Below, piece after piece: positions 1 through 63,914 of a stretch of 64,000 nucleotides of DNA. The notes beneath the pieces were generated by a model that did no database searches, was not told the origin of the DNA, and saw nothing but the letters and a program-made list of their open reading frames with translations. The DNA comes from a virus. The DNA lies in the IMG/VR virus record IMGVR_UViG_3300042887_001883, positions 10,198-74,197 of that record; one strand, given 5' to 3'. Numbering within the stretch: the stretch's first letter is position 1; each line of letters starts with the position of its first letter. A program made the translations under genes and the position numbers.

Positions 1-200
1 TCTAATTTTGAGATGACATCTGTACTGGCGAATGTATTAGATTTTACATCTTCGGACAGTTTTGTAATTTTTGGAATTTTTTTAAATTTGGTACCTTTTG
101 TAGTTCTTTTAATGATACCGCCAAATAGTGAGCCACGAGCACCGGCTACATTAGCTGTGCTAATTTCACCATCTTCTTGTAAAAAATCAATAAATTTCAT
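1..200 (-). CDS. Hypothetical protein running off the window edge; possible internal head protein (MKFIDFLQEDGE...)
   Basis: ATG at 200 on minus strand, open to position 1; TATAAATA on minus strand at 240-247; N-terminus resembles MKxxE/DxLxE leaders of T4-like internal proteins. Not in the ORF track. Confidence 0.7.
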   Translation of the reverse strand, partial: MKFIDFLQEDGEISTANVAGARGSLFGGIIKRTTKGTKFKKIPKITKLSEDVKSNTFASTDVISKL

Positions 201-238
201 GTGTATACCTTATATTATGTATTACCAACAGGGTCAAT

Positions 239-254
239 ATATTTATATAAATAT
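239..254. promoter_or_regulatory. Palindromic bidirectional T4-type late promoter (TATAAATA on + at 246-253 and on - at 240-247)
   Basis: ATATTTATATAAATAT is a perfect 16-bp palindrome between two divergent genes. Confidence 0.6.
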
Positions 255-284
255 TCATGCTTAATTTTAATAGGATTATAAAGA

Positions 285-3200
285 ATGTATCACCCATCAA
301 ACACCCCATATAATACTATAGCTGAAGGAATCGTACATGATACCAATGACCCACAACGTAGAGGCAGAATTAAAGTTTTTTGTCCAGTATTTGGGGATAT
401 TCCGGGTACCTTAGTAGAAGATTTACCATGGTGTAGATATATTACCCCATATGGAGGCATGGTAAATTCTGATGTAATGGGTAGAGGGCCTTCTGATACC
501 CCAACTGATGGTAGTGTAGCTTATGGAATGTGGGCTATCCCTAAAATTGGGACGATGGTGGCGGTAATGTGTTTAAATGGAGATGCCTCCCGTAGGGTAT
601 ATATTGGATGTATGCCACCAGCATATTCTGAACATACTTTACCACATGGTAGATTTATTGAAAATGATGGCCCATTATCATCATCAGAAAAACCCATTCA
701 GCCATTATATGATAATATGAAGAAGGCTTTTGGTAAGGATAGGGCAAAATTTGAATATCAAACCAGAGGTATGGATTATAGTGTTACTGGATTATCCCAA
801 AAGAATATTGATGCAGGATTAACTAATTCTAAGAAAAAGGATGAAAAAATAGGATATAAGAAATCTAGGATTCAACCTGATTTAAAATATAATGATAGGG
901 AGGATGATACTAATTATGATAGTCAAACATGGTCCTTTACTACCCCAGGATTCCATTCTATATCAATGGATGATAGTCAGGACAATAGTAGAATAAGAAT
1001 AAGAACATCTAGTGGGCACAATATTATATTTGATGATACTAATGAGAGGATTTATATTAACACTGCCGAAGGCAATAATTGGATAGAATTGGACCAAAAT
1101 GGTTCTATTGACATTTATTCTAGTAAATCAATATCTATCAATTCTGATGAGGATATTAATTTAAATGCTAAGAAAGCTATTAGGATGCATGCTAATGATA
1201 TTCATATTAATGCGGATAATGATGTAAATGTAACAGCAGTTAAGGATATTAATATAAATGCTGAAAATATTGCATCGACAGCTAAAGAAGAATATTCTAT
1301 AAAAACCAAAAATTTGGATATGTTTATCAAGAATGCTTTGAAGGTTACTGCAAAAACCATTGGTATACGTGGTAAAGATGCAATGAGTTTATCTAGTAAG
1401 AAAAGTATATTAAAAGGTACTGATACCTTATTCATGAAAGGTGATAAAACTAGTGTTACTGGTTCGAGTATCATGGATGTGTTTGGTAAAAAAATAAATA
1501 TTAAGGGTGAAACTATTGTTAATATGAATGGTAAGGTGGTGGATGTTTCTGCATCACAATCATTGATAACAACAGGTCCTAAAATTGTATCTACTGTTAA
1601 AACGGTAGAAATACCGGCTGCTGACCCGAATGCCTCTGCGGATGCTGCACCTATTGAGCAACCAGTTACCGAAACACCAGATGTTTTGGGTTCTATGACT
1701 GATGATGCTAAACAAACAATTACTGATGAAACCGGATTGACTGAGGATGACTTTGGTGGAATGTCTGGTTCTGATTTTAGTGATGCTATTCAAGGTATGA
1801 TGGCTATTCCAGAATCTGGTACTGCTATGAATAATGTTTTATCATCATTATCCCCAGAAGAATTAAACAATGTATTACAAAATACTACAGATTTATCACA
1901 ATTAATTAATAATGTTCCTGATATTGCGAATATATTAAATTCTATGAATCCAGCAGATTTAGAAAATTTAATAAAAGATAATCCTGATGTTGCAGATACC
2001 TTAGCAAACTTAGATTCTGGTGGAGATGTATTGAAAAATATCCCGGATATTGGTGATACCTTAGAAAATATGGATGACCTTAATAATATGGTTGATAATA
2101 TGAATAGTGATTCCGTTGGTGATTTGTTATCAAATGTATCTAGTGCTAATATGGATAATGTATTTGATAAATCATCTGACACTAATACCTTATTATCAAA
2201 AATACCTAGTAAGGATATGGGGAAAATATTAAGTAATGCCACCCCATCAAAGGCAGCATCATTATTGATGAATAGTTCTGATACCAATAATATTATTTCT
2301 AATATTCCATCATCCGATAGAGCTTCATTATTTGAACGGATGGATTCTGATACTATTGGTCAAATAATGGGTAATGTATCTGATGATAATATAGGGGAAA
2401 CACTATCAACATTATCATCTAGTAAAGTTAATGAAGTTGTTCAACAGTTACCAGTATCAGTATTTGGTAATGCACTATCAAAAATATCCACTAATAAATT
2501 AGATAATTTGGATGATATTGATAATGTGAATATGGATGATATTAAATCTAGTATTGCTACTGAATCATTTAATGATGAAAATATGACGAAGGCAGATATT
2601 GGTGAAACATTAGCTAATATGGATGTTGATGAGTTAGAAAATACATTAGATAATTTAGATGATGTTGGTGAAACATTATCCACTATTCCAGGATGTCATG
2701 CTGGTAGTGTTTTACGAAAAATAAATGACCCTAATTCATTATTAAAAACATTATCTAGTAAACATGTTGGTAATATTCTCACAAATGCCCCTGGTGGGGA
2801 TGTAACAGAAATTAGTGATAATGGTACGGGTGAGGTGTTATCTAATCTTGATGGTGATGATTTGGGTAATATTATGAATAATATGACTGGTGCTGATGTT
2901 AGTAGCATGTTGAACAGTATGCCAGATTATAGTAGTAAAGTATTTTCAAATATTCCGGGTTCTGCATTAGCTGAGATTGTTGGTAAAATACCAGAACAAG
3001 ATATTAATGATATCATATCTAATATGTCAGATAATGAAATAATAGATAAAGTATCATCTTTGAGTCCTACAGAAATGGGAGATTTTTTGGCAGCATTACC
3101 AAGTAATTTAGCATCAGATATTTTAGATAAGATGAACAATAGCAATATAGATAATTTATCATCATCTATTTCCCCTGATGCATTAGGTAATATGGTTAGT

Positions 3201-46294: not shown

Positions 46295-46325
46295 TTATCA
46301 TGCCTAATTATTCAACTATTCAATC

Positions 46326-51318: not shown

Positions 51319-53239
51319 TACCAATATGAAATATTCTATACCATACACTGATACATCAAAAAGTCCCATTGAAATAGAAACCAACACCATTAATACTGAT
51401 ACCATATTAAAATTATATGGTCAGGGTTCAGTAAACTATGGGGCGGAATTATGGATTAATTTATTAAAACTTTTAGACCATACATGTAGTGGTGGTGTTA
51501 ATAATTCTGGACCATTGAAACCCATTGAGGGTCAATTATGGTATAATAATTATTCAACCACCTTAAATTTATATAAAACTAACAAATGGGTTCCTATTGT
51601 AGATAGCCAATATTTGGAAAGTCTTTATGGTACCGGTGGACTTGATGGATTATTGAAAAAAATCGCAGATGCATTATTAGACGATACTACCCCAATGGTT
51701 AAAAGTCTCATAGCAGAATTAAATAAATATTTATTACCATTAACTGGTGGTACAGTATCTGGAAAATTATACTTACCTAAAATAAGTTCGTTAGCAACAT
51801 TCTATGATAAAGCAAAACTCACTGATAAAAATAAGGTTTGTACAATAGAATATCTAAAATGGTTTGTACTAGAATTTGCTAAAAATTATGTACCGCCAAA
51901 TTCCCCAGGATTTGATGATAGTCCATTTGGTATAGGGTACGATACGGACCCGACATTATTAGCCGAAGTTTCACCATATGTACCATTAAACATTGTATTA
52001 CCTACTGTTATTACTGGAAGTAATATTACTTTTAGTAATAATGTAATAGCTAATAAGGCTACCGTAGATTTAGTAACAACTAATAATGATGCTATTAATA
52101 AAAAATATTCTGATGACCATACATCAGCATCAGCATTAATGGATATTTTTAAGAATTCAACACCATTCAAAAATGCAATTTCTGGCGAAATTGATAAATT
52201 AATTAATGCTCCGGCAAACCAATCTACATCAACATCTCCTACTTTAAAATCATATAGCATAACCGATGATGCTATTAAAAATGGTAAAGGTATCACCCCT
52301 ACTGATACTGGATTGTCCCTTGCTATAACCCCCCAATCCATAAAATCTAAATTTTTAATAAACATATCATTAACATTATCAAATGGTGATAAACCTGGTA
52401 CTGCAATAGGAACATTATATAAAAACAATACCATATTATTACCAAATTTTTGTGTAGTAGATGGGACTAAATTCGATTCTATGCCATATGGTGTCACTTT
52501 TATAGATAGTGTCACTTCCACTGATAAAGTAACATATGTTGTAAAAGTAAATGGGAACGATGCTAGTGGTGAATGGTTCGTAAATCAATCATCTGATATT
52601 ACCAATAAATCAATATCATCGATGACTATTATGGAATTTATTGGAGATACTATAATAACTAAAGGTACTAGTAATTCTGTGGCTTCTATCCTACCAACTA
52701 CTATTGGTGACGTTTATAACGGTGGCGTTTATATAGGTGATATTACAGATGGTGGTGTTAAATATAGATTAATACTATCACCAAAATCAACTGAACTTAA
52801 TATGCAATATATAACTAATAAAGGTTCATCGGTAGGTAATAGAACAAATAATACGATTTCACGTACAAATGGTCCAGAAAATACGAGAATTACATCACAG
52901 AGTATATTAGATGGATTCTTAGCAGCATGGTATTGTTCAAGATTAGACATAAATGGATATTCTGATTGGTATTTACCAGCAGCAGATGAATTAGTAGTTA
53001 TGAGTGTGAATCGAAAAGCACTGTTGACTGGTCCCAATAAAATGGAATGGCTTACCACTTTTAATGGTGGTACTGGAAGTTATACTGCATATTCTGGTGG
53101 GTTTTATTGGTCTTCTACCGATGATGGTAGTGTTCTAACTGCTCTAAAGGTACATTGTCGTGATTATGCATCGAGTGCGGTAACAGAGGTCAAAGAAACT
53201 GTTTGTCATGTTAGAGCAATCAGACGTGAACCATATTAA
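51311..53239 (+). CDS. Fibre protein with DUF1566/Lcl-like tip
   Basis: Shared module; IGDVYNGGVYIG..YCSRL..DWYLPAADEL..YWSST..VRAIRREPY; alternative start 51326. Confidence 0.78.
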   Translation: MHNTNMKYSIPYTDTSKSPIEIETNTINTDTILKLYGQGSVNYGAELWINLLKLLDHTCSGGVNNSGPLKPIEGQLWYNNYSTTLNLYKTNKWVPIVDSQYLESLYGTGGLDGLLKKIADALLDDTTPMVKSLIAELNKYLLPLTGGTVSGKLYLPKISSLATFYDKAKLTDKNKVCTIEYLKWFVLEFAKNYVPPNSPGFDDSPFGIGYDTDPTLLAEVSPYVPLNIVLPTVITGSNITFSNNVIANKATVDLVTTNNDAINKKYSDDHTSASALMDIFKNSTPFKNAISGEIDKLINAPANQSTSTSPTLKSYSITDDAIKNGKGITPTDTGLSLAITPQSIKSKFLINISLTLSNGDKPGTAIGTLYKNNTILLPNFCVVDGTKFDSMPYGVTFIDSVTSTDKVTYVVKVNGNDASGEWFVNQSSDITNKSISSMTIMEFIGDTIITKGTSNSVASILPTTIGDVYNGGVYIGDITDGGVKYRLILSPKSTELNMQYITNKGSSVGNRTNNTISRTNGPENTRITSQSILDGFLAAWYCSRLDINGYSDWYLPAADELVVMSVNRKALLTGPNKMEWLTTFNGGTGSYTAYSGGFYWSSTDDGSVLTALKVHCRDYASSAVTEVKETVCHVRAIRREPY

Positions 53240-53250
53240 TAGTTATGGAT

Positions 53251-53280
53251 AAAAAAGCCCCTCTTCGAGGGGCTTTTTTT
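53251..53280. terminator. Bidirectional intrinsic terminator
   Basis: A6-GCCCCTC-TTC-GAGGGGC-T7 between convergent operons. Confidence 0.92.
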
Positions 53281-53290
53281 ATCATATTTT

Positions 53291-54385
53291 TTAGTATAAT
53301 CTAGCCATACCCATCTTTGTAGTATTAAATTTTATAACAGTTGTATTATTATCAATATGTGTTACTGATAATGGAGTATAGATTACATTATTAATAAACA
53401 CTTCTACTGTTGGTATAAATCCTAATTGGTGATGAATAGTCCATATGGTTGAAGATATAGTAGAATTATACTCAAATATATTAGTTGTTGATGGTGATGC
53501 AATATGAGTAACATCTAATTTATCGGTGCTTTCTACTTCAATTTCTAAAGTATATGTCAAATACCATGTGCTAACGGCAGGTTTATCCAATGGGTCGAAT
53601 ATTAAATGGGTTAATAATCGTGGTGCTTCTTTATCCGGTTTATTAGGATTATTCTTATCTTTACGCAAATTATCGGCAAGCCAGTTGTCCATATTTTTAA
53701 CATTATGTGGTTTTTCGACAACGGTAAATGCTTTTAAATTTTTGAACAACCAATTGCTTGGTGGGGTTTTAGGTATTTGAATATCTATTTTATTTTGTTC
53801 ACATACAAATCTTAATTTTTTAGCACGATTTCTGGATGTTTCTGTACCACATTGATTATCATTTATTAACTTATTATCAGCAATACCAATACCAAGATGT
53901 CTGCTTGCTAATGATGATACATTATTAACAACTGATTTAGCATCGGCTACACCAATACCTAAATATGATGGAGCTAAGGTGGCAATATTATTGAATTTTG
54001 TTAATTCATCAACAATACTTATACCAAGATATGCTGGTGCTAAAGACGAAAAATTATTGAATATGGTTGGTTCATCAACTATACCAATACCTAAATATGG
54101 TGGTGTTAATGCCCCAAAGTTAATATTAACTATAGGTTCATCAACTATACCAATACCTAGTTTATTAGCTGATATTCTAGCAGGTATGATAGTATTAATA
54201 GGTTCATTTACTATACCAATACCCAAATGAGGGTCAGCTATTATTGATGTACTATTTTGAATTATTGGTAAATCAATTATACCAATACCAAGATAACTAG
54301 ATGGTTCGTGAAGACTAAAAGGGGTTATGGTACCGTCAAATAATTCAAATTTGTACGGTAAATCAACTATAAAACCATCACTCAT
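53291..54385 (-). CDS. Structural protein: seven 22-aa LGIG repeats + C-terminal half of the 60242/62518 family + small beta domain
   Basis: RLLTHLIFDPLDK..YTLEIEV matches the paralog C-termini; WTIHHQLG domain shared with 63495. Confidence 0.75.
   Translation of the reverse strand: MSDGFIVDLPYKFELFDGTITPFSLHEPSSYLGIGIIDLPIIQNSTSIIADPHLGIGIVNEPINTIIPARISANKLGIGIVDEPIVNINFGALTPPYLGIGIVDEPTIFNNFSSLAPAYLGISIVDELTKFNNIATLAPSYLGIGVADAKSVVNNVSSLASRHLGIGIADNKLINDNQCGTETSRNRAKKLRFVCEQNKIDIQIPKTPPSNWLFKNLKAFTVVEKPHNVKNMDNWLADNLRKDKNNPNKPDKEAPRLLTHLIFDPLDKPAVSTWYLTYTLEIEVESTDKLDVTHIASPSTTNIFEYNSTISSTIWTIHHQLGFIPTVEVFINNVIYTPLSVTHIDNNTTVIKFNTTKMGMARLY
53860..54310 (-). repeat. Seven degenerate 66-bp (22-aa) repeats, consensus (Y/H)LGIGIVDEP..N...L
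   Basis: Visible in the translation and as recurring ATACCAATACC on the + strand. Confidence 0.85.
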
Positions 54386-55872
54386 CAGGTCACCTTCACT
54401 GCATGATACTTAAATTTAATATATTTACTACCATCAGCTAATGTTATTTCATTACCATCTTTAATTGTGGTTTTACCAACACCTACCAGGTTATATACAT
54501 TACTATATGTTGATACATTACCAAAAACACCAACATCATCAGATTTTATTAATATTGGTAACAATATAAATTGTTTAGTATTGGTACTGTCTACATAAAT
54601 TAAGGTAGTATCACCTAATGTTTTTTGACTGTACATATCAAACCGTGCAGATGATGCATATGTTGCAGAACCATCAAAAGGATTATAAAAACGACCAGTA
54701 TATGCCATAGAATCCATTTGTGGATAAATCTTAATACCAACTAAGGGTTTTGAATTAGTGTCCAACCATGGGCAAGTATGAGCAAATTTTGAAATTAAAT
54801 AGGTATAATAATAATTTGTTATGGATGTAGGCAAATTTTTCCATTTGCTGGTAATTGCTACATGATTATCAGATGCACTAATATATAATGTACCGGTGTC
54901 TTGATTAGTTTTAGTTAATGTAGAATTTCCACCAATATTAGGCATATACTGAGGATAATTTATAGAATCAGAATACAATTGTTTACTACCAGAACTAGTC
55001 GGGTCACCATCCCATGCTTCAATATATAAAATATGTTGTGAACCAGATGGGGCAATATTAGAACCAGTCGAGGTACCTAATTTATAATAATATTTTACAT
55101 ATATGTTTGATGCACTATTTTTTACTGTTACTTTTTTCGTTACAGTTGATGAGGTTTTTCCAGATAATGTAGCTGTTGTTTGAGCTAATGATGTGTATTT
55201 TTTCCCAGGTACAGGGGCATATTCTAAACCAGCACCATATGGTATTATAGGATACGTAGATTTAACGGTTGGCCAATCTTCCATAACAGTTTCAGAATAA
55301 GTATACTTTGTTGTTACAGTTTTCCCATATTGCGGGGAACTTGCCGTATATGTTTCTTCCCTAACTTTTGTCCACGTACATGGAACAGTATTAGTTTTAT
55401 TATTTACAATAGCTTGGGATGATAATGAATTATTATTTGATAAAATATTAGTAATATCAGATAATAAATTATTAATAGAATCAGCATTCATTTGAATAGT
55501 ATCATTATATTTTGATGTTTTTTCTACTGTTTGGTAAGCTACTGCAAAACTAATCTTTACATCTACCCAGGTTGCACTCCATACTTTTACAATATCAACT
55601 TTTAAAAAACTTGGCATTGGGTTAGGAATGGTATCTCGTTTAACCATAAAATTATACGTTGGTTGTCCCAAACCAATTCTGGTATATACTCTATACCATG
55701 AAGGGGTTCCGGTACCAGTTACTTTATCAGGAATGGTACCATCAAAAGCATAACCGTTAGCATCAACCCACTCCCCAATAGTAGTATTATTTTTTAATGT
55801 TGGTAATGTACCTACTTCGCTACCAGCAATAGTACTATCATATATACTGTTAAATTGATATTCGGTATACAT
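54385..55872 (-). CDS. Putative virion protein, MY(I/T)xY family member 4
   Basis: MYTEYQF; LYISASDNHVAI; GNVS..VY..EITL. Confidence 0.6.
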   Translation of the reverse strand: MYTEYQFNSIYDSTIAGSEVGTLPTLKNNTTIGEWVDANGYAFDGTIPDKVTGTGTPSWYRVYTRIGLGQPTYNFMVKRDTIPNPMPSFLKVDIVKVWSATWVDVKISFAVAYQTVEKTSKYNDTIQMNADSINNLLSDITNILSNNNSLSSQAIVNNKTNTVPCTWTKVREETYTASSPQYGKTVTTKYTYSETVMEDWPTVKSTYPIIPYGAGLEYAPVPGKKYTSLAQTTATLSGKTSSTVTKKVTVKNSASNIYVKYYYKLGTSTGSNIAPSGSQHILYIEAWDGDPTSSGSKQLYSDSINYPQYMPNIGGNSTLTKTNQDTGTLYISASDNHVAITSKWKNLPTSITNYYYTYLISKFAHTCPWLDTNSKPLVGIKIYPQMDSMAYTGRFYNPFDGSATYASSARFDMYSQKTLGDTTLIYVDSTNTKQFILLPILIKSDDVGVFGNVSTYSNVYNLVGVGKTTIKDGNEITLADGSKYIKFKYHAVKVT

Positions 55873-55876
55873 TATT

Positions 55877-56887
55877 TTAACCTTTTAATAATAGTAATCG
55901 CATATAGGACGTTGAGAAATCATTATTTTGTATAGGCCATATTATATATGTTGTACCGTTCATAGTAATTTCATCATATATTTTTGCAGAAATAGAACTG
56001 CTAGGAAGAGCATAAAATTTGCCTAATTCCGATATTGAGCCACCAAATAAATAATTAGATGACTGTTTATCACTAACGTACACATGATTACCATAATAAT
56101 ATTTATGGGATGCTGAATCTGGATTATAAAAATTTATAATTCCCACCTTGTCGTAAATATCTACTTCATATTCGTTATCATTAGATATTGCGGCACCATA
56201 TGTGGTAGTAGAGGATTTTCTGGTAGAATATACTGGAGTGGGTAAAGTAGCAGTGTATCCCCATGTATTACAGGTAAAAAATATAAATCTAGGAAAGGCA
56301 CTTTGTAATATATCGGTAGAAGCTATATCTGCAACACCAATAGGTGAAGAATACTTATCATTAGATGTATTAATACTACTCATCATTAAATGGTTTTTAT
56401 TTAAATGAATATGTATAGTTCCACCTTCAGCATATATTTTTAATGGTCTTGATTTTGATTGTGTACACAAAGTATCAGTACTATCATACATCTGTAATGT
56501 TAAATTTAACGTTACTAAATTTTTAGTATCCGAATATGATGTGGTTCCATCAGCATTAGAAATTCTAGTAAAACCATATGTATCAGTAGTAGTATCATCT
56601 AACGTACTAATAGTAATAAATTTTTGATAATATTCTTCACTATTAGTAGATTTTATATGATATTCATAATCGATATCTTCTTTATCAGTATCAGTAACCC
56701 ACCCACTATCAGTACCATAATAATTAACATTTAAACAAGCATCTGATAAATCATATTTAGATGATATACTGGTTATAATAGTAGCCAAATCTTGCACAAC
56801 AAGATTTTTGACCCTAGTGATAGTTAATGCATCACTATTAAAAGGGTCGGGTGGTAAGGCTGCTTTATATTGATAAGCAATATACAT
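55877..56887 (-). CDS. Putative virion protein, MY(I/T)xY family member 3
   Basis: MYIAYQY; GGTIHIHLNKNHLMMSSIN; GGSIS..YDEIT..YIIW. Confidence 0.6.
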   Translation of the reverse strand: MYIAYQYKAALPPDPFNSDALTITRVKNLVVQDLATIITSISSKYDLSDACLNVNYYGTDSGWVTDTDKEDIDYEYHIKSTNSEEYYQKFITISTLDDTTTDTYGFTRISNADGTTSYSDTKNLVTLNLTLQMYDSTDTLCTQSKSRPLKIYAEGGTIHIHLNKNHLMMSSINTSNDKYSSPIGVADIASTDILQSAFPRFIFFTCNTWGYTATLPTPVYSTRKSSTTTYGAAISNDNEYEVDIYDKVGIINFYNPDSASHKYYYGNHVYVSDKQSSNYLFGGSISELGKFYALPSSSISAKIYDEITMNGTTYIIWPIQNNDFSTSYMRLLLLKG

Positions 56888-56889
56888 AA

Positions 56890-58167
56890 TTAGAACATTG
56901 GTATAGCTAATTTAGGATATGTAATCTTTTTAGTATCAGCAGGACTTCCAGAAATTGGGGATAACGTCATAGCCGTACTATTACTATAATTAACTAATAA
57001 TAATTTATATGACCGACCAAATACATCAGTAATAATATCCTCAAACTGTCCAGACATGCCATGCATCCAATAAATATTATTTTCGGATGTTATATCACCA
57101 GTGAAATTTAAACCACTAGCACTAGTAATATTAAGATGTTGCATATACATAGCTTGTTGTTTAGCTTCATCAGACATTAAAAATATTGGTAATTTTCCTT
57201 GGTCCGATGTTGATGAATGCATAATATTCATAGTAGATGACCATTTAATTTTACACGATGGTATATCTGATACTAATGTTTTTGATTTATTACTAAAAAT
57301 GTTTAATACTGACCCATATGTTGGAGTTGATTTTGGAGTCTGGGTATATACTCGCATAAATGCCCATCGTTTCCAACCAGCCATCAATTCTTGATTTGCT
57401 GTAACTGGAGTATTATACCATACATCCATAGGTTTATATTTTGTTAATAACAATGCCGCATGTGCATATGATGTTTCTGTTGCAAGGATACTTTTACTTT
57501 TAGAAATGCCCGTCATATAAAGGTGATTAGATGATAATGAGATAATCAATTTGAAAGATGTGGTATCAAAAGTAACATTGCCAACCGACAATGTACCTTT
57601 ATGAGAGTCAATGGTTCCGGTCAAATCTGGAGCTAAAGTGGTAGGCTTGGTAGTCCCATTATTCAATAATGATAATGTCATAGCAATAGGTAAATCATAT
57701 ACCCCATCAACAGTATATGTCATTTTGACATATAAAAATGCTGGAATACTGTTTGTAGTATTTACAGTACCATCTTCGTTGTACACAGTATCTTGAGTAT
57801 CAAATTGCAAAATAGTATCACAAACTCTAGTAGTAATATTTTGGCATGTTGTCCATCCTTCATAATCATATACACCATCCGTTAAAGTTGGACCAAATGA
57901 GGTATGTTTTAAAAATGAAGTAAGGGCTGGATTTTTTGCATCATCTTGTACAAATACTGAAGTATCACGTACATTAGCACTAAGACCCAATGTGGATGAA
58001 CTCCCATCAAAACTTACACAGGTCAAACATTTAATAATATCTTTAAAAGTATCTAATGCTCGTGCATGTGTAGCTATTTTACCAGCAGCATTTTCTGGTG
58101 TATTATCCGGTGTTCCATGTCCCGTTACAAACCCGTCAAAATCATTGAAAACTAATTCTATATACAT
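56890..58167 (-). CDS. Putative virion protein, MY(I/T)xY family member 2
   Basis: MYIELVF; LIISLSSNHLYM; GDIT..IY..EDIIT. Confidence 0.6.
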   Translation of the reverse strand: MYIELVFNDFDGFVTGHGTPDNTPENAAGKIATHARALDTFKDIIKCLTCVSFDGSSSTLGLSANVRDTSVFVQDDAKNPALTSFLKHTSFGPTLTDGVYDYEGWTTCQNITTRVCDTILQFDTQDTVYNEDGTVNTTNSIPAFLYVKMTYTVDGVYDLPIAMTLSLLNNGTTKPTTLAPDLTGTIDSHKGTLSVGNVTFDTTSFKLIISLSSNHLYMTGISKSKSILATETSYAHAALLLTKYKPMDVWYNTPVTANQELMAGWKRWAFMRVYTQTPKSTPTYGSVLNIFSNKSKTLVSDIPSCKIKWSSTMNIMHSSTSDQGKLPIFLMSDEAKQQAMYMQHLNITSASGLNFTGDITSENNIYWMHGMSGQFEDIITDVFGRSYKLLLVNYSNSTAMTLSPISGSPADTKKITYPKLAIPMF

Positions 58168-58171
58168 ATTA

Positions 58172-59416
58172 TTAACCTAATCTTACAATATATTTAAATG
58201 TTGATGATGTATTCAACTGTGTTTTTGATGACGATGCTGAATCCCACACCACATAATTACCATATTTTAAGGTATCATATGCTAATTTATCGTCAGGCGC
58301 AGTCGTATCAATAGTATCCTGTTTAGGTAGTACAATATCAATAGTATCCAATGCTTTACCCAATCCAATCATATATATTGGACATTTTGTGGATACATCA
58401 CCACCAATATCATAATATAAAGGGTCGTATTTATCCGGGTCATTGTCTACTTTTACCAATTTATTATGAATCCCTACTCTTGCACAAACAATAGCAGGAG
58501 TAAAATTATAATTCATTGTTTTTTTAGGAATCGTCATACCAGATGGTGACAAGACAGAATTAATATATTGGCTTTTTAATTGGAATATATTTTTTGCGGG
58601 AGGATATGATGATGGTTTTGTAGCTGTTCCAATATAGGCACTATCATCAAACCATACCAAATCGGTAGTATGTTTAATATCATATGTTCTAGGTGTTGAA
58701 ATATTAGTAGCACCATTCATCGATAAGAATACCCATTTTGGATATTGATTCGATTGCAAATATGAACCAACACTTACCCCCTCATATTCAAATACATATG
58801 GGTCAAAATCTACTATACCCAGCCCAGGAGTCCAACCATATTTGTTACTATTAACACTAGATATTAATAAATGTGATTCATCTGCGGATATGAATAATAT
58901 TCCACCGGCAACATATATTACTGGTTGAATAAAATTCTTATCTGCAAATCCATATGAACTATTTAATTTACCATCAGATGTTTTTTCATAGGCTTTAATA
59001 GATACGGTAGAAGCTATTTTATCAACAGCAATAGCACCCGTACCGAAAAGTAATGGTGATGTTAAACCAATAACTAAATTTTTTCCATTAGAACCACTTA
59101 TATAGAATTCAACATCAGTACTAGTTAATCCAGTAGTTTCTGTCCACCCAGGAAAGGTTTTAACATAACTATTTGCCGGAATAATTTGGTCGGCTAACGG
59201 TGGATTAGAAATCGTATTTGAGGTAGTCTTTAAAGTATAAGTTTTATCACATATATCTGATAATTGTGATGTCATCTCATCGTGAAAGATGGTATTAAAA
59301 TATCCATCAGCATCAAATGTCCCTGCAGAATATGTTAGTATCATCTTTAAATCTGCTAAAACTTTTTTTACATCAGAAGCAGTTGTTAATTGATTGTATT
59401 TGTAGGCAATATACAT
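58172..59416 (-). CDS. Putative virion protein, MY(I/T)xY family member 1
   Basis: MYIAYKY; GGILFISADESHLLISSVN; GGDVS..IY..DTID..YVVW. Confidence 0.6.
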   Translation of the reverse strand: MYIAYKYNQLTTASDVKKVLADLKMILTYSAGTFDADGYFNTIFHDEMTSQLSDICDKTYTLKTTSNTISNPPLADQIIPANSYVKTFPGWTETTGLTSTDVEFYISGSNGKNLVIGLTSPLLFGTGAIAVDKIASTVSIKAYEKTSDGKLNSSYGFADKNFIQPVIYVAGGILFISADESHLLISSVNSNKYGWTPGLGIVDFDPYVFEYEGVSVGSYLQSNQYPKWVFLSMNGATNISTPRTYDIKHTTDLVWFDDSAYIGTATKPSSYPPAKNIFQLKSQYINSVLSPSGMTIPKKTMNYNFTPAIVCARVGIHNKLVKVDNDPDKYDPLYYDIGGDVSTKCPIYMIGLGKALDTIDIVLPKQDTIDTTAPDDKLAYDTLKYGNYVVWDSASSSKTQLNTSSTFKYIVRLG

Positions 59417-59428
59417 ATGTTTGTTTCT

Positions 59429-60232
59429 CTATAGTTTAATTGGTGTAATGACATTATTTTTAAATTCTACCACGTCAACAGCAACAGTATTAATAAAAGT
59501 TGTTGTATCTTGCATAGCATCATTTAACAATAATAACAAATCATGATAGGATATTTTTGCATCATTACCAGTTCCTATTTTGGGTGTCGTTATATTTATA
59601 GTTTTTATATCGTCACCTAATTTTACATCAAAGGTATATGTTTTATCGTTATCTAATCCAGTATCTTCAGAATCATAATTTTTACTAACATCCACATATT
59701 GAACCCCCGAAAATGCACTTTTTGATATTCCCGAAAATAAAGCAATTTCATCAAATGTAAAAACTGGACCAGTGGTGAATTGATTATTAGGTTCATTATT
59801 ATTTAAAATTACATTAATAAAAACTGTGGTTTTGGTACCATCTTCTACACTAACAACTCCAGGACCATTAATATCATTTGGCATGCTGCTGGGGTCTGAG
59901 GTATAATCAGCTTTAGAACCCTTACTAACTGAGGTTGGTACATAATCATCTAAATATTCACGATATATTTCATGATATAAATCAGATTTCCATCCATAAT
60001 AATCTGGAACTATCCCATCATTAGGTGTTTTATGAACAACAGTACCTTCAACATTTTTATATGTTCCCAAATCACCAAATTTTATACTGTTAATCCAATA
60101 ATTTGATTCGTGTGCTAACCCTCTAGCAATCATTCTAGCCATATTACCAGGATGGATATCATTACATTGGTCTAAAATTATAGTACCATTTTCATCTTTT
60201 ATTATACAACGACCTTTAATTTTTAAACCCAT
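59429..60232 (-). CDS. Structural protein, N-terminal part only of the 60242/62518 paralog family
   Basis: IKGRCII.D..G..ILDQ.NDIHP.NMAR, FDEIALFS; lacks the RLLTHLIF C-terminus. Confidence 0.75.
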   Translation of the reverse strand: MGLKIKGRCIIKDENGTIILDQCNDIHPGNMARMIARGLAHESNYWINSIKFGDLGTYKNVEGTVVHKTPNDGIVPDYYGWKSDLYHEIYREYLDDYVPTSVSKGSKADYTSDPSSMPNDINGPGVVSVEDGTKTTVFINVILNNNEPNNQFTTGPVFTFDEIALFSGISKSAFSGVQYVDVSKNYDSEDTGLDNDKTYTFDVKLGDDIKTINITTPKIGTGNDAKISYHDLLLLLNDAMQDTTTFINTVAVDVVEFKNNVITPIKL

Positions 60233-60241
60233 AATTATATC

Positions 60242-62521
60242 CTATGGAATGGCGTTTATAGCATCATACACTAATGATGCATCAGTTATAGGAGTTGATA
60301 CCCTACCCCCGGTTCTAACAGCCATATTAACGTAAGATTGGTCTGCATTATTTTTTATGTTGGATGTAGTTAATAACAATACCCGTATGTTTTTATTGTA
60401 ATAGTTTTGAGTAATGGCTTTCATAACCGTAATATCTGCTAAAGTATTGGCATCATCAGTACCACTTGCAGTAGCATCTGTAATTAAAACTACCATTTTT
60501 GCAACATTATCTCGCCACGTTCCAGCAAAATCATTATACGTTTTATCTAATGCAATATCCCCTGGCTCTGGTCCACCAGCTCCATAACCAATAACAAAAG
60601 TAGATTTATTAATTTTGTTAAGTTGTGTTATGAAAGATGATTTGTTATTGGAGTCCATCATTTCCATAGCAGTAATAACTTGTACTCTACCACCTAATGC
60701 AGAACTACTATTAACATATTTTTGAGATGATGGTAATCCGGTATACTCAGGACTGCTTAGACATCCTGCACTTTTACCATAATCGAATGAAGTATATTCA
60801 TCAAATAATACTAATCCTAATCTATAGTTAATATTAGATTTACTAGAAATTAAATTAACAATATTCGAGATATTTGTTTTCACATTTTCAATAACACCAC
60901 CCATACTCGATGTATAATCTATAACAAATACGATATCGATACCTTCTTCTGTTAACACTGGATTCCCTGGTGAATCAGGAACTGCAGTAGTTGTGGTAGT
61001 AGGTGCCCGTGTAGTTGTTGTAGTTGGAGCCTTCGTAGTTGTGGTTGTTGGAGCCTTCGTAGTTGTTGTAGTGGTAGTTGGGGCCTTAGTGGTTGTTGTA
61101 GTCGGAGCTTTAGTAGTTGTTGTTACCGGAGCTTTTGTGGTCGTAGTTACTGGCTTTCTAGTGGTCGTAGTAGATGGTCCAACATATAAGGTAGTGGTAG
61201 TGACTGCCTTAGTGGTAGTCGTTGTCGATGCCTTAGTAGTTGTTGGAGCCTGTGTTGTCGTAGTTACTGGCTTTCTAGTAGTCGTAGTAGATGGTCCAAC
61301 ATATAAGGTAGTGGTAGTGACTGCCTTAGTGGTAGTCGTTGTCGATGCCTTGGTAGTTGTAGTTGTTGGAGCCTGTGTTGTCGTAGTTACTGGCTTTCTA
61401 GTAGTCGTAGTTGTGGGAGCTTTTGTTGTCGTAGTTGTTGGTGCTCTAGTGGTAGTAGTGGCATTAGGTGGCAATATAATATCAATAGCTACTTTTTCAT
61501 ATGTACGATTTACATATACTGTTAATGTATAAATGATATTAAAAATTCTATTAGCTGATTTTAACACTGGTGAAAAAATCAAATGTGTTAATAGTCTTTC
61601 TTGTTCTAAACTTCCATCACAATGATTATTCCTAAAACCCATATAACTACCATTAACTGGTTTCTCGATACTAACAAAACCAGGTATTTTGTCAAATATC
61701 CAAGTTACCGTTGGGGTGCCCTGCTTTATGATATTAATTTTAGATGCTTCACCTTCTTTACGACTTTCAATTTTTATGTTACCATATTCCAAAAATACAT
61801 TAACATTGTGAACCGCCATAGCCTGTTGAAAAGCTGTTAATAACCCGGTAAACGTAGAATCATTTGGTGAAAATTTTATAGAAATTGGTGCTTTGTCATC
61901 TATAGCTATAACAAAATCATATATTTTGACCGGTACACCTTTATCATCATTAGCATCTAATTTAATTATTTGATAACCATGTGTTGGTTTATTAGTCAAT
62001 CCACGAGAATATAAACCTATTTCGTCAAATATAAAGGTGTTATCATTTGTATTATAATCAGTTTTTAATTGTCCAGAAGGTTCACCTAAATCTAATCTAG
62101 CATGAACGACTACTTGCGAAATCCTATCCTTATCTACACTAGAACAACCTATGCCCGAATCAGTATGGTCGGTACTAATAAATTGTGGAATTATACTACC
62201 ATTTCCAGAACCATCAGCTACTTTTTCAGAATAGGTTTCATTATATAATTTCGATTGCCATTCGGCAGTATCTGGGGCTATACCATCATTAACTGGTCTT
62301 AATTTTAAATATGAAACACTAGCTTGTGTTTCATAATAAGTACCACCATTACCAAATGCGATACGGTCTATCCAAAAATTATCTTCATGTGCCAAAATTC
62401 TACCAATAATCCTAGACATATTACTAGGATGAATAGCATTTGTTTGGTTTAAATGTGTATTACCTAAATCATCGGTAATTAAACAATGTCCAGAAATAGT
62501 TATTGGTAATTTTTGTTTCAT
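60242..62521 (-). CDS. Structural protein + ~160-aa Thr-rich stalk + von Willebrand factor A domain
   Basis: NAIHPSNMSR..FDEIGLYS..RLLTHLIF; vWA DIVFVIDYTSSM (MIDAS DxTxS), GGPEP, WRDNVAKMVVLITDA. Confidence 0.8.
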   Translation of the reverse strand: MKQKLPITISGHCLITDDLGNTHLNQTNAIHPSNMSRIIGRILAHEDNFWIDRIAFGNGGTYYETQASVSYLKLRPVNDGIAPDTAEWQSKLYNETYSEKVADGSGNGSIIPQFISTDHTDSGIGCSSVDKDRISQVVVHARLDLGEPSGQLKTDYNTNDNTFIFDEIGLYSRGLTNKPTHGYQIIKLDANDDKGVPVKIYDFVIAIDDKAPISIKFSPNDSTFTGLLTAFQQAMAVHNVNVFLEYGNIKIESRKEGEASKINIIKQGTPTVTWIFDKIPGFVSIEKPVNGSYMGFRNNHCDGSLEQERLLTHLIFSPVLKSANRIFNIIYTLTVYVNRTYEKVAIDIILPPNATTTTRAPTTTTTKAPTTTTTRKPVTTTTQAPTTTTTKASTTTTTKAVTTTTLYVGPSTTTTRKPVTTTTQAPTTTKASTTTTTKAVTTTTLYVGPSTTTTRKPVTTTTKAPVTTTTKAPTTTTTKAPTTTTTTTKAPTTTTTKAPTTTTTRAPTTTTTAVPDSPGNPVLTEEGIDIVFVIDYTSSMGGVIENVKTNISNIVNLISSKSNINYRLGLVLFDEYTSFDYGKSAGCLSSPEYTGLPSSQKYVNSSSALGGRVQVITAMEMMDSNNKSSFITQLNKINKSTFVIGYGAGGPEPGDIALDKTYNDFAGTWRDNVAKMVVLITDATASGTDDANTLADITVMKAITQNYYNKNIRVLLLTTSNIKNNADQSYVNMAVRTGGRVSTPITDASLVYDAINAIP
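60985..61460. repeat. Thr-rich low-complexity tract with a ~120-bp internal direct duplication
   Basis: KASTTTTTKAVTTTTLYVGPSTTTTRKPVTTTT occurs twice with near-identical DNA. Confidence 0.85.
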
Positions 62522-63495
62522 GCTTGAACAACATTAATATTTAAAATGTAATCAACGGTGTAAATCCTATCATATGGTTTTGTGATAGGATTAAAGATTA
62601 AATGTGTAAGCATTCTTGAATATTCAGCATCCGGATTATTAGGATTATTCTGTAAACCAGAATCTTTACCATTAACAGCAGTATCTATTTTTTGATAAGT
62701 GGTGATATTTTTAAACAACCATAATGCATTATCAGAAGAATCTACAACTTCTATAGAGGATTGTGATGATGACGTTTTGCTAGTAAATTTAAGATATCCT
62801 TGTGACATAGATACAGTCATATAATTTTTTAAACCAGGAATATCATTAATATATGTTACTAATTTGGCAAATGATAATGTACTAAGGTCGGTACTAGGCA
62901 TATTTAATGTATAATCAAATTTGGTACCATCTACAAAAATAGAGAAAACATAATTGGTATCTTTTAATAATCCAGTATCAATAGTGATATTAGGAGTATT
63001 AAATACCACTGATTGATACCCACTAGTTGGGGAATCATCCGATACCCCAGAAGAAAATAATGCTATCTCGTCAAACGTATAAGAACTATCGGCAGGGATA
63101 CTATAACTCTGAGACAAATATTCATTAGATGGTTGGTTTTTATCCAAATATATTGTTACCACAGTCTGTGAATATGATGCTAATTCTTTACTAACTAATG
63201 TGGAATTATTTGTACCATCCAATATTTGTAAATAGGTTTCATTATATAACTTAGTTTTATAATTACTAATATTCGGGGATTTATATTTTATATTATTTGC
63301 AGGGTCAACAAACGTACCCCCATTCCCAATAGCGATTTTGTGTATAAAACTATTTTTCTCTTTTGATAATGCTCTTGAAAAAATACGAGATAAATTAATA
63401 GGGTGAATAGCATTTGTTTTATCTAAAATGATATTTCCCAAATCATCAGAAATTATACATCTACCAGTAACGGCAATAGGGATACGTTTTTGCAT
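62518..63495 (-). CDS. Structural protein, intact member of the IHP/FDEI/LTHLIF family
   Basis: NAIHPINLSR..FDEIALFS..RMLTHLIFNPITK. Confidence 0.75.
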   Translation of the reverse strand: MQKRIPIAVTGRCIISDDLGNIILDKTNAIHPINLSRIFSRALSKEKNSFIHKIAIGNGGTFVDPANNIKYKSPNISNYKTKLYNETYLQILDGTNNSTLVSKELASYSQTVVTIYLDKNQPSNEYLSQSYSIPADSSYTFDEIALFSSGVSDDSPTSGYQSVVFNTPNITIDTGLLKDTNYVFSIFVDGTKFDYTLNMPSTDLSTLSFAKLVTYINDIPGLKNYMTVSMSQGYLKFTSKTSSSQSSIEVVDSSDNALWLFKNITTYQKIDTAVNGKDSGLQNNPNNPDAEYSRMLTHLIFNPITKPYDRIYTVDYILNINVVQA

Positions 63496-63914
63496 TATTT
63501 ACTAACTCTAGCAAGTCCTGACATTGGTGTACTAAAATAAACATTAACTTGATTATTATTAATGCTGGTAATGTTATGTGGAGTAATACTTTCTAATACT
63601 CCGTTAAATTGTACCATAACTTCAATATTTACAAATTTGGTACCTAAATTATGGAGGATACTCCATTGATTACTAGTTGTTGGTTGATTATGTGTATATG
63701 CATCACTGGACGTTGAATTAACTACCACCGTACCGGAAATAGGTACTGAAAATGAAATATTTAAATTATTATTATCTACCAATTGAATTTGCTTAGGCAT
63801 TATTGCTGTTGTGACACCATTGTCATCCACCCAAACGTCAACTGCTGGTTGTGTTGTATTGAGGTTATGTGCTACTGCCCAAATACTGGATGGTGTTGAT
63901 TGATTAATCTCCAT
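63495..63914 (-). CDS. Small virion protein of two WxIxHNL beta domains
   Basis: NQSTPSSIWAVAHNL and NQPTTSNQWSILHNLG tandem repeats. Confidence 0.7.
   Translation of the reverse strand: MEINQSTPSSIWAVAHNLNTTQPAVDVWVDDNGVTTAIMPKQIQLVDNNNLNISFSVPISGTVVVNSTSSDAYTHNQPTTSNQWSILHNLGTKFVNIEVMVQFNGVLESITPHNITSINNNQVNVYFSTPMSGLARVSK

What the first reader, a model, noticed from the sequence alone, without database searches (positions are those of the whole stretch)
53291..60232. Structural gene split in two by a ~5 kb cassette of four paralogous genes
Seen: 62518-63495 and 60242-62521 share a full domain running IHP..FDEI.L.S..G.Q..(L/I)K(F/I).S..W(L/I)F..NN....E..R(L/M)LTHLIF.P..K...Y.L. The third paralog 59429-60232 matches only up to 'LLNDAMQDTTTFIN' and stops 19 aa later. 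The missing part (KLRF..WLFKN..NNPNKPDKEAPRLLTHLIFDPLDK..YTLEI) reappears at ~53530-53860, inside ORF 53291-54385. Between them sit four MY(I/T)xY genes and seven 22-aa repeats. The candidate junctions read FIN|TV and LIN|DNQ. The N-half tail (VEFKNNVITPIKL) weakly echoes the start of 53291 (FELFDGTITPFSL). Inference: one protein is made as two complementing chains that may scaffold the four inserted proteins, or is rejoined by splicing or DNA excision. Both halves are open, which argues against simple decay.
Basis: partly seen in the sequence, partly recalled or inferred. Interest (0 to 1): 0.82.

Follow-up and report, generated by a model that had tools for sequence, protein, structure and literature searches.

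The report
Phage baseplate gene split by fibre cassette
In this uncultured jumbo phage a tail/baseplate protein that related phages make as one chain is encoded as two conserved genes, with four to six genes for fibre-building subunits between them, so the protein probably reassembles from two chains and anchors a new fibre.

Summary
59429-60232 (N-half) and 53291-54385 (C-half) are complementary pieces of the third paralog ("parC") of phage family phrog_11259. Related phages encode parC as one 420-426 aa chain: its residues 1-230 match the N-half and 226-425 match the C-half. Those phage records hold no cassette.

The split layout recurs in two close relatives and one distant relative. All genes are under purifying selection (omega 0.12-0.36). 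The distant relative has six cassette genes and 11 repeats; the window has four and 7.

The C-terminal beta-hairpin carried by the C-half belongs to the same core domain as the N-half's strands. This follows from the AlphaFold model, structural alignments and 191-aa minimal family members. Trans-complementation of two chains is therefore the best reading, but it is inferred, not shown.

The cassette proteins model onto JBD30 gp47, a tail-fibre-forming subunit (Z 14). The 22-aa repeats are part of the C-half.

I found no intron, no intein, no flanking repeats and no conserved readthrough.

This is a new variant of phage "genes in pieces". This scan has noted similar split baseplate genes bracketing cargo on other DNA.

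The parts
59429..60232 (-). parC N-half (267 aa). It holds the N-terminal core strands plus the first part of the insertion domain. The conserved tail ...VVDVVEFKNNVITPIKL lies at 59432-59509.
   Evidence: 39% identical to residues 2-230 of fused ortholog P0038. Covers positions 2-214/246 of the fused-only HMM. omega 0.12-0.21.
58172..59416 (-). M1, class A fibre-subunit-like protein (414 aa)
   Evidence: AF2 model has pLDDT 70 and pTM 0.78. Its only strong PDB match is JBD30 gp47, 8rk3_c: Z 14.0, 244 aligned, rmsd 4.0. omega 0.16-0.18.
56890..58167 (-). M2, class B paralog (425 aa)
   Evidence: Matches the M-family HMM at 1e-98. Class B clade has support 96. omega 0.21-0.29.
55877..56887 (-). 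M3, class C paralog (336 aa)
   Evidence: Matches the M-family HMM at 8e-69. Class C clade has support 97.
54385..55872 (-). M4, class D paralog (495 aa), the most diverged member. Its TGA stop overlaps the C-half ATG by one base.
   Evidence: 57% aa identity to L009 with omega 0.36.
54299..54385 (-). C-half head (aa 1-29, MSDGFIVDLPYKFELFDG...), a new N-terminal element
   Evidence: The head pattern MsxsFIy..PP....G.W is conserved across C-half lineages. It is absent from fused orthologs.
53837..54298 (-). Seven 22-aa 'xYLGIGIVDxP...' repeats (aa 30-183 of the C-half)
   Evidence: Exact 22-aa spacing. 66-bp DNA period. 11 repeats in L011. Similar repeats occur in unrelated proteins.
53522..53824 (-). 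C-half family part (aa 188-288): the rest of the insertion domain (KLRFVCEQNKIDIQI, WLF helix) and the core-closing hairpin APRLLTHLIFDP...YTLEIEV
   Evidence: 37% identical to P0038 residues 226-425 (E 2e-32). Matches the Cdom HMM at 3e-39. The hairpin residues are invariant across lineages.
53294..53494 (-). C-terminal Ig-like domain of the C-half (aa 298-364)
   Evidence: Matches the Ig HMM at 1e-30. Among the paralogs it is shared only with fused parC orthologs. VIA matches CBA120 TSP4 and phiKZ baseplate Ig-like domains at Z 6.5-6.6.
60242..62521 (-). parB: an intact paralog followed by a Thr-rich linker and a vWA domain
62518..63495 (-). parA: an intact paralog (325 aa)
63495..63914 (-). 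g139: a tandem Ig-like domain protein, the first gene of the operon visible in the window
53251..53279 (.). Bidirectional intrinsic terminator that ends the operon directly after the C-half
   Evidence: 13-bp GC-rich stem with T tracts on both sides.

Best explanation
The minus-strand operon g139-parA-parB-[parC-N | M1-M4 | parC-C] encodes peripheral tail or baseplate proteins of an uncultured jumbo phage.

Ancestral parC was a single chain with three parts: a beta-sandwich core built from the first ~180 residues plus a C-terminal beta-hairpin, an alpha/beta insertion domain looped out between them, and a terminal Ig-like domain.

In this lineage the gene is interrupted inside the insertion domain. 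The upstream piece now ends in a conserved short tail. The downstream piece has its own start, a 29-aa head and seven 22-aa repeats. Between them lie four to six genes for globular subunits with the fold of JBD30 gp47/gp48, proteins that stack into an arm-like tail fibre.

Shown:
- The split, its complementarity and its orthology to one-piece genes.
- Its conservation and purifying selection.
- The fold assignments.

Inferred:
- The two chains re-associate non-covalently, with the C-half hairpin completing the core of the N-half.
- The repeat array, which emerges exactly at the point of interruption, together with the reconstituted parC, ties an M-subunit fibre to the baseplate periphery.
For: 1. 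One-piece orthologs exist. P0038 residues 1-230 match the N-half and residues 226-425 match the C-half, including the Ig-like domain that parA and parB lack. L039 and L040 have the operon g139-parA-parB-fused parC with no M genes in those records.

2. On an HMM built only from fused orthologs, N-halves cover positions 2-246 and C-halves cover 225/239-423. The pieces therefore abut, with at most about 15 positions of overlap.

3. N-halves and fused parC form one clade with support 100. Monophyly of the split forms is not rejected (p-AU 0.36).

4. The same layout occurs in L007, L009 and the distant L011, whose N-half is 57% identical. omega is 0.12-0.36 at dS 0.2-0.9 for every gene.

5. The core needs both pieces.
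- In the AF2 model the N-terminal strands and the hairpin 304-332 both have pLDDT about 90.
- Small single-domain chains align across both segments: phi812 baseplate 9euf_b to model 43..333 (Z 6.8), GP4 fibre-tail adaptor 8jou_a to 24..329 (Z 6.0), phiKZ gp139 to 17..328 (Z 5.6).
- Minimal 191-aa family members consist of Ndom positions 1-175 plus Cdom positions 64-91 only.
- A 192-aa BFVD protein matches at TM 0.80.

6. M1 matches JBD30 gp47 at Z 14.0, with the next hit at 4.2. gp47 and gp48 form heterodimers that build the lateral tail fibres (PMC11445458).

7. The M genes fall into four orthologous classes. L011 has an extra A-B pair and four more repeats.

8. The genes are packed with 1-nt overlaps or gaps of 2-12 nt, there is no credible internal terminator, and a strong terminator follows the C-half.
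Against: - No co-fold or experiment shows that the halves bind each other or the M proteins.
- The gp47 similarity is structural only; hhalign finds nothing. The M1 model has pLDDT 70.
- The link between repeat number and M-gene number rests on two independent lineages. A 6-repeat C-half (P0070) does not fit a simple rule.
- The parA tree places split L011 nearer the fused phages than the window, so the order of events (one split, or a split followed by re-fusion or module exchange) is unsettled.
- The record with a fused gene that lacks M genes is only 54% complete.
Confidence: 0.6

Rival explanations
1. Subfunctionalisation without reassembly. After the break the two pieces became independent proteins. 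The N-half would be a truncated baseplate protein stabilised some other way. The C-half would be a repeat-shaft fibre whose family remnant docks elsewhere, for example onto parA or parB.
For: - The family is modular. L011 has an ORF holding only the insertion domain, and its parB carries a second insertion domain.
- Many phages match only the first ~150 residues.
- 22-aa LGIG repeats occur on unrelated proteins, so they could form a generic shaft.
Against: - Every other family member seen, including the 191-aa minimal forms, keeps the C-terminal hairpin.
- The record has exactly one orphan N piece and one orphan C piece.
- The hairpin is the most conserved stretch of the C-half.
- The halves always co-occur in one operon.
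Confidence: 0.22
2. The halves are rejoined into one chain by RNA splicing, protein trans-splicing, DNA excision of the cassette or translational recoding.
For: The halves are collinear and on the same strand. The N-half stop and the M1 start are in frame in all four loci.
Against: - No Rfam group I/II intron or other relevant RNA match at E<=1 across 53000-60600.
- No Pfam Hint/intein or endonuclease domain in any of the proteins.
- No direct repeats flank the cassette.
- The intervening 5 kb is four selected protein genes.
- The in-frame gap contains further stop codons in L007 and L011, so readthrough is not conserved.
- The C-half has a conserved start and head of its own.
Confidence: 0.03
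3. Decay or artefact: a pseudogenised paralog, or a misassembly that placed a fibre cassette inside a gene.
For: The phage keeps two intact paralogs that could make a third dispensable. All data are metagenomic assemblies.
Against: - The same layout is found in independent contigs from different samples (L007, L009, L011, L042), and further protein clusters exist.
- Both halves stay open at dS 0.5-0.8, with omega 0.12-0.28.
Confidence: 0.03

Closest known systems
Genes in pieces of T4-like phages: Aeromonas phage Aeh1 nrdA-a / mobE / nrdA-b (Crona et al. 2011, PMC3045599)
   Same: A gene that is contiguous in relatives is cut into two collinear genes by inserted DNA. Both pieces are kept. New terminal 'tails' arose at the break. 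In Aeh1 function is restored by non-covalent assembly rather than splicing.
   Different: - Here the protein is structural, not an enzyme.
- The insert is a 5-8 kb cassette of selected fibre-subunit genes, not a homing endonuclease.
- The downstream piece gained a 150-250 aa repeat array.
- Assembly of the pieces has not been shown.
JBD30 tail-fibre-forming proteins gp47/gp48 (PDB 8rk3; Valentova et al. 2024, PMC11445458)
   Same: The M1 model superposes on gp47 over 244 residues (Z 14.0). Both sets are adjacent paralogous genes for globular subunits. The extra A-B pair in L011 mirrors the heterodimer building block of JBD30.
   Different: - No detectable sequence similarity.
- Four to six distinct paralogs instead of two.
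- A jumbo phage rather than a 37-kb siphophage.
- The genes lie inside a split gene rather than after the tape-measure gene.
- No pilus-binding evidence.
phrog_11259 and single-copy homologs in jumbo phages (XacN1 ORF329, Xoo-sp13, CM1/RAS14; N-terminal part only in PA5oct and 121Q/PBECO4-like phages)
   Same: parA, parB and both halves match this family. XacN1 ORF329 aligns over 98% of parA and lies four genes downstream of a gene annotated as baseplate wedge.
   Different: The family has no assigned function. All isolate-phage members found are contiguous, and none has the M cassette.
Peripheral baseplate and fibre adaptors with a similar core fold: phiKZ gp139 (PDB 9xpg; PMC13250141), GP4 fibre-tail adaptor (8jou_a), phi812 baseplate chain 9euf_b
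   Same: A small beta-sandwich core aligns to both the N-terminal and the C-terminal segments of parC. phiKZ gp139 secures the fibre-attachment platform to the baseplate wedges.
   Different: Only Z 5.6-6.8, in the range where a shared arrangement may be common. There is no sequence relationship. These are leads for function, not membership.

Membership tests
phrog_11259 (jumbo-phage structural family, function unknown) | Significant match to the family profile | tested here: met
   parA 2.6e-44, parB 6e-39, N-half 1.8e-31 (profile positions 12-242), C-half 5e-4 (positions 327-373).
phrog_11259 (jumbo-phage structural family, function unknown) | One chain holds both the N-terminal core and the C-terminal LLTHLIF hairpin | tested here: not met
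   Met by parA, parB and 40+ homologs. Not met by the N-half or the C-half singly; the two together cover the profile.
Genes in pieces (Aeh1 nrdA type) | Contiguous orthologs exist and the two pieces are collinear and complementary | tested here: met
Genes in pieces (Aeh1 nrdA type) | The intervening DNA is a mobile homing-endonuclease gene | tested here: not met
   The four intervening proteins have no Pfam or PHROG hit and model as a fibre-subunit fold.
Genes in pieces (Aeh1 nrdA type) | The pieces assemble non-covalently into the functional protein | not testable with these tools
   Only single natural chains can be folded here. Inferred from fold topology.
Split intein / fractured gene | Hint-domain halves at the break (an N-intein after the N-extein; a C-intein ending in HN plus a nucleophile) | tested here: not met
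   No Pfam intein/Hint match. The N-half ends within ~26 aa of its last aligned residue, and the C-half head consists of repeats.
Group I / group II intron | Intron RNA structure at the boundaries | tested here: not met
   cmscan against Rfam 15 at E<=1 across 53000-60600 gives only terminator-like and chance hits.
JBD30 gp47/gp48 tail-fibre-forming proteins | Shared fold over most of the chain | tested here: met
   Z 14.0, rmsd 4.0, 244 of 317 residues aligned, next hit Z 4.2. The model has pLDDT 70 and pTM 0.78.
JBD30 gp47/gp48 tail-fibre-forming proteins | Detectable sequence homology | tested here: inconclusive
   hhalign of the M profile against gp47 and gp48 gives probability <1%. Neff is only 4.
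JBD30 gp47/gp48 tail-fibre-forming proteins | Subunits polymerise into a lateral baseplate fibre | not testable with these tools
   Indirect only: tandem paralogs, and a pairwise A-B duplication in L011.

The most novel reading that the evidence does not exclude
The split is an assembly device rather than damage that the phage tolerates. In this reading the 22-aa repeat array is a spine or ruler with about two repeats per M subunit: 7 repeats for 4 genes and 11 for 6, with an extra A-B pair matched by four extra repeats. A hetero-oligomeric fibre of different gp47-like subunits would be strung on this spine. The reconstituted jelly-roll of the N-half and C-half would lock the loaded spine onto the baseplate. 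The interrupted loop would then be a general slot where phages plug new fibre modules into a baseplate protein, by in-frame domain insertion in some relatives and by whole-gene cassettes in others.
Probability: 0.2. Interest if true: 0.8.

Novelty: new variant of a known kind. Interest (0 to 1): 0.62.

Why it matters
Phage genes in pieces are known mainly for enzymes cut by selfish endonuclease genes. Here a virion protein is cut through its core fold by a cassette of useful structural genes, and the arrangement has been kept and expanded over long divergence.

If the two chains reassemble, this gives three things:
- a natural split-protein pair for a beta-sandwich adaptor;
- a concrete route by which large phages add a new multi-subunit fibre to an existing baseplate;
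- a first functional handle on a widespread unannotated jumbo-phage family (phrog_11259) and on a previously unnamed family of gp47-like subunits.

Similar "split baseplate gene bracketing cargo" notes from other genomes in this scan suggest the pattern may be general. I did not test whether those cases involve the same family.

Tried and rejected
- **Stop-codon readthrough fusing the N-half to M1.** The gap is in frame in all four loci, but L007 and L011 have further in-frame stops, and L011 ends its N-half with TAA. Rejected.
- **Readthrough from parB into the N-half.** In frame in the window and L009, but the gap is 10 nt in L007. Rejected.
- **Echo between the N-half tail and the C-half head.** p 0.02, 0.014 and 0.35 in three lineages, with different registers. 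Not robust.
- **N-half tail as a duplicate of the C-half hairpin.** There is positional overlap on the fused profile but no significant sequence similarity (p 0.08-0.9). Left open.
- **Introns and excision.** Rfam found nothing relevant and there are no flanking direct repeats.
- **Isolate phage genomes.** megablast of the region gave no match. tblastn of the C-half and of M1 against 50,697 phage records gave no match.
- **More split loci to test repeat number against M-gene number.** IMG/VR scans with P0078 and P0071 found nothing.
- **Function from neighbours.** PHROG and Pfam searches of flanking fibre genes and of proteins with similar repeats gave no functional names.
- **Foldseek against the PDB for the parC model.** Only weak FliD-type hits.
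- **ESM Atlas search with M1.** Only unnamed viral clusters.
Full report
**Context**

The window is the last 64 kb of a 74,197-bp IMG/VR viral record estimated to be 21% complete. G+C is about 31%. parA has full-length homologs only in jumbo phages such as Xanthomonas phage XacN1 (385 kb), Xoo-sp13 and Stenotrophomonas phages CM1 and RAS14. PA5oct-like and 121Q/PBECO4-like phages share only the first ~150 residues. In XacN1 the homolog, ORF329, lies four genes downstream of a gene annotated as baseplate wedge.

The region of the finding is one tightly packed minus-strand operon. Reading in the direction of transcription it holds:
- g139, 63495-63914
- parA, 62518-63495
- parB, 60242-62521
- N-half, 59429-60232
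- M1-M4, 58172-59416, 56890-58167, 55877-56887 and 54385-55872
- C-half, 53291-54385

Neighbouring genes overlap by 1 nt or are separated by 2-12 nt. There is no credible internal terminator. A strong bidirectional terminator at 53251-53279 closes the operon.

**Checking the observation**

- parA and parB align over the whole family region (32% identity, E 4e-51).
- The N-half aligns to parA residues 7-218 and to parB residues 5-193, then ends.
- The C-half matches the missing C-terminal part at residues ~190-288 (E 4e-13 and 1e-10).
- On the independent PHROG profile phrog_11259 (383 positions) the N-half covers 12-242 and the C-half covers 327-373.
- The four intervening proteins are mutually homologous.
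- The seven 22-aa repeats are real, with exact 22-residue spacing and a 66-bp DNA period. They are the N-terminal part of the C-half ORF, not intergenic.

**One-piece orthologs**

A protein search with parA returned P0038 (425 aa) and P0039 (420 aa). P0038 residues 1-230 match the N-half (39% identity, E 2e-48). Residues 226-425 match C-half residues 171-364 (37% identity, E 2e-32). This second match includes a C-terminal Ig-like domain that parA and parB lack.

Two IMG/VR records, L039 and L040, carry the same operon order with a single 426/422-aa parC: two upstream Ig-tailed proteins, g139-like, parA, parB, parC. After parC the operon ends. No M-family gene is found anywhere in those records, which are 147.6 kb (54% complete) and 46.7 kb.

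On an HMM built only from the four fused proteins, N-halves cover positions 2-246 and C-halves cover 225/239-423. The pieces therefore abut, with at most about 15 positions of overlap. The overlap falls on a beta-hairpin of the insertion domain. The two copies of this hairpin are not significantly similar in sequence.

In a tree of the N-terminal domain, the N-halves and fused parC form one clade with support 100, separate from parA and parB. Holding the split forms together as one clade is not rejected (p-AU 0.36).

**The split is conserved and selected**

- Two close relatives (L007, L009) have the identical layout.
- Pairwise dS is 0.2-0.9. omega is 0.12-0.21 for the N-half, 0.21-0.28 for the C-half and 0.14-0.36 for M1-M4.
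- A distant relative, L011, has an N-half 57% identical to the window's and a C-part 48% identical. It has the same break point.
- L011 carries six M genes and a 472-aa C-half with 11 repeats.
- The M proteins fall into four orthologous classes: A-B-C-D in the window and A-B-A'-B'-C-D in L011. The cassette, with its four classes, therefore predates the divergence of these phages. L011 differs by one extra A-B pair and four extra repeats.
- Protein clusters for further C-halves of 342, 449-460, 472 and 487 aa exist. All have the same kind of head and repeats.

**Fold and topology**

I folded fused parC (P0038) with a 46-sequence alignment (pLDDT 77). The model has these parts:
- N-terminal strands, residues 2-181.
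- An alpha/beta insertion domain, residues 194-271.
- A long C-terminal hairpin, residues 304-332, with pLDDT about 90.
- An Ig-like domain, residues 355-424.

The insertion domain resembles the outer domains of tail-sheath and FliD proteins (Z 9.0-9.3). Small single-domain chains align across both the N-terminal strands and the C-terminal hairpin: phi812 baseplate 9euf_b (model 43..333, Z 6.8), GP4 fibre-tail adaptor 8jou_a (24..329, Z 6.0) and phiKZ gp139 (17..328, Z 5.6). These Z values are middling.

Sequence agrees with this topology. The minimal 191-218-aa family members consist of N-domain positions 1-175 followed directly by the hairpin (C-domain positions 64-91). A 192-aa BFVD protein matches the model at TM 0.80.

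The break therefore cuts through one fold. The N-half lacks two core strands, and the only orphan copy of these strands in the record sits on the C-half. This is the main basis for inferring trans-complementation. It has not been shown directly.

**The cassette proteins**

The M proteins have no Pfam or PHROG match and no tblastn match in isolate phages. The M1 model (26 sequences, pLDDT 70, pTM 0.78) has a single outstanding PDB match: JBD30 baseplate chain 8rk3_c, at Z 14.0 with rmsd 4.0 and 244 of 317 residues aligned. The next hit has Z 4.2.

By its length this chain is gp47, which is 318 aa. In JBD30, gp47 and its paralog gp48 form heterodimers, and three heterodimers stack into each lateral tail fibre (PMC11445458). 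Profile comparison finds no sequence relationship, so this is a fold-level assignment. BFVD matches are "virion structural proteins" of several siphophages and jumbo phages.

**The repeats**

A full HMMER scan with the head-plus-repeat region found the same kind of 22-residue LGIG repeat at the C-termini of a few unrelated proteins. One of them has a weak concanavalin-like N-domain. The repeat is therefore a generic structural element of unknown structure. Whether it forms a shaft, a spine for the M subunits or something else is open.

**Rival mechanisms**

- Splicing and excision: there is no intron RNA match, no intein domain and no direct repeats flanking the cassette.
- Readthrough: the in-frame arrangement of the N-half and M1 is interrupted by further stops in L007 and L011.
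- Decay or misassembly: both are contradicted by selection and by independent contigs from different samples.
- Independent function of the two pieces: this remains a real alternative, which I put at about 0.2.

**Direction of change**

All other family members are contiguous, so a contiguous parC is the parsimonious ancestor. However, the parA tree places L011 (split) nearer the fused phages than the window. These genomes are also mosaic: g139 is identical between the window and L009, while the neighbouring parA has dS 0.63. I cannot decide between a single split, a later re-fusion and exchange of the whole module.

**Comparison with what is known**

The closest precedent is Aeh1 nrdA, which is cut by mobE and reassembled through tails created at the break (PMC3045599). 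Here the protein is structural, the insert is a selected fibre-subunit cassette rather than a selfish nuclease gene, and the downstream piece gained a long repeat array.

Earlier notes of this scan describe split baseplate or tail genes bracketing other cargo in other genomes. Sequence look-ups with P0004 and P0038 found no look-alike there, so I did not test whether the family is the same.

**Verdict**

The two-chain reading is supported by comparative and fold evidence but is unproven. The splicing and excision readings are not supported.

Noticed in passing
window 63495-63914 vs L009 6325-6744: g139 is identical to the relative's copy (dN = dS = 0), while the adjacent parA has dS 0.63. This is a sharp recombination or mosaic boundary inside the operon.
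   Followed up: partly
window 54385-55872 (M4) and 53837-54298 (repeats): M4 and the first 124 aa of the C-half (head plus first four repeats), the only part available in L009, are the most diverged parts against L009 (57% and 67% aa identity, omega 0.36 and 0.28). They are candidates for the host-facing, fast-evolving end of the module.
   Followed up: no
L011 9655-9999 and L011 7616-9658: The distant relative has a 114-aa ORF that is an insertion-domain-only fragment. Its parB carries a second insertion-domain copy. The family shuffles this domain freely.
   Followed up: partly
window 60242-62521: parB continues into a ~170-aa Thr-rich (TTTTTKAP) linker with 24-117-bp DNA repeats and then a von Willebrand A domain. 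In L039 and L040 parB is only ~240 aa.
   Followed up: no
proteins P0085, P0087, P0088 (not in window): 22-residue LGIG-type repeats like those of the C-half occur at the C-termini of unrelated proteins, one with a weak Laminin_G_3 match. This repeat class appears to be unnamed.
   Followed up: partly
protein P0083 (260 aa, 1.3-kb contig): A C-half-like protein that starts directly at the hairpin, with no head or repeats. It may be an intermediate or a third architecture. Its context could not be read.
   Followed up: no
window 53251-53279: A perfect 13-bp GC-rich hairpin with T tracts on both sides serves as a shared terminator for the convergent fibre gene 51311-53239 and the split-gene operon.
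   Followed up: no
window 44612-53239: Four plus-strand fibre-like genes share an N-terminal module (phrog_15511, ~100 aa) with different C-terminal domains.
   Followed up: no
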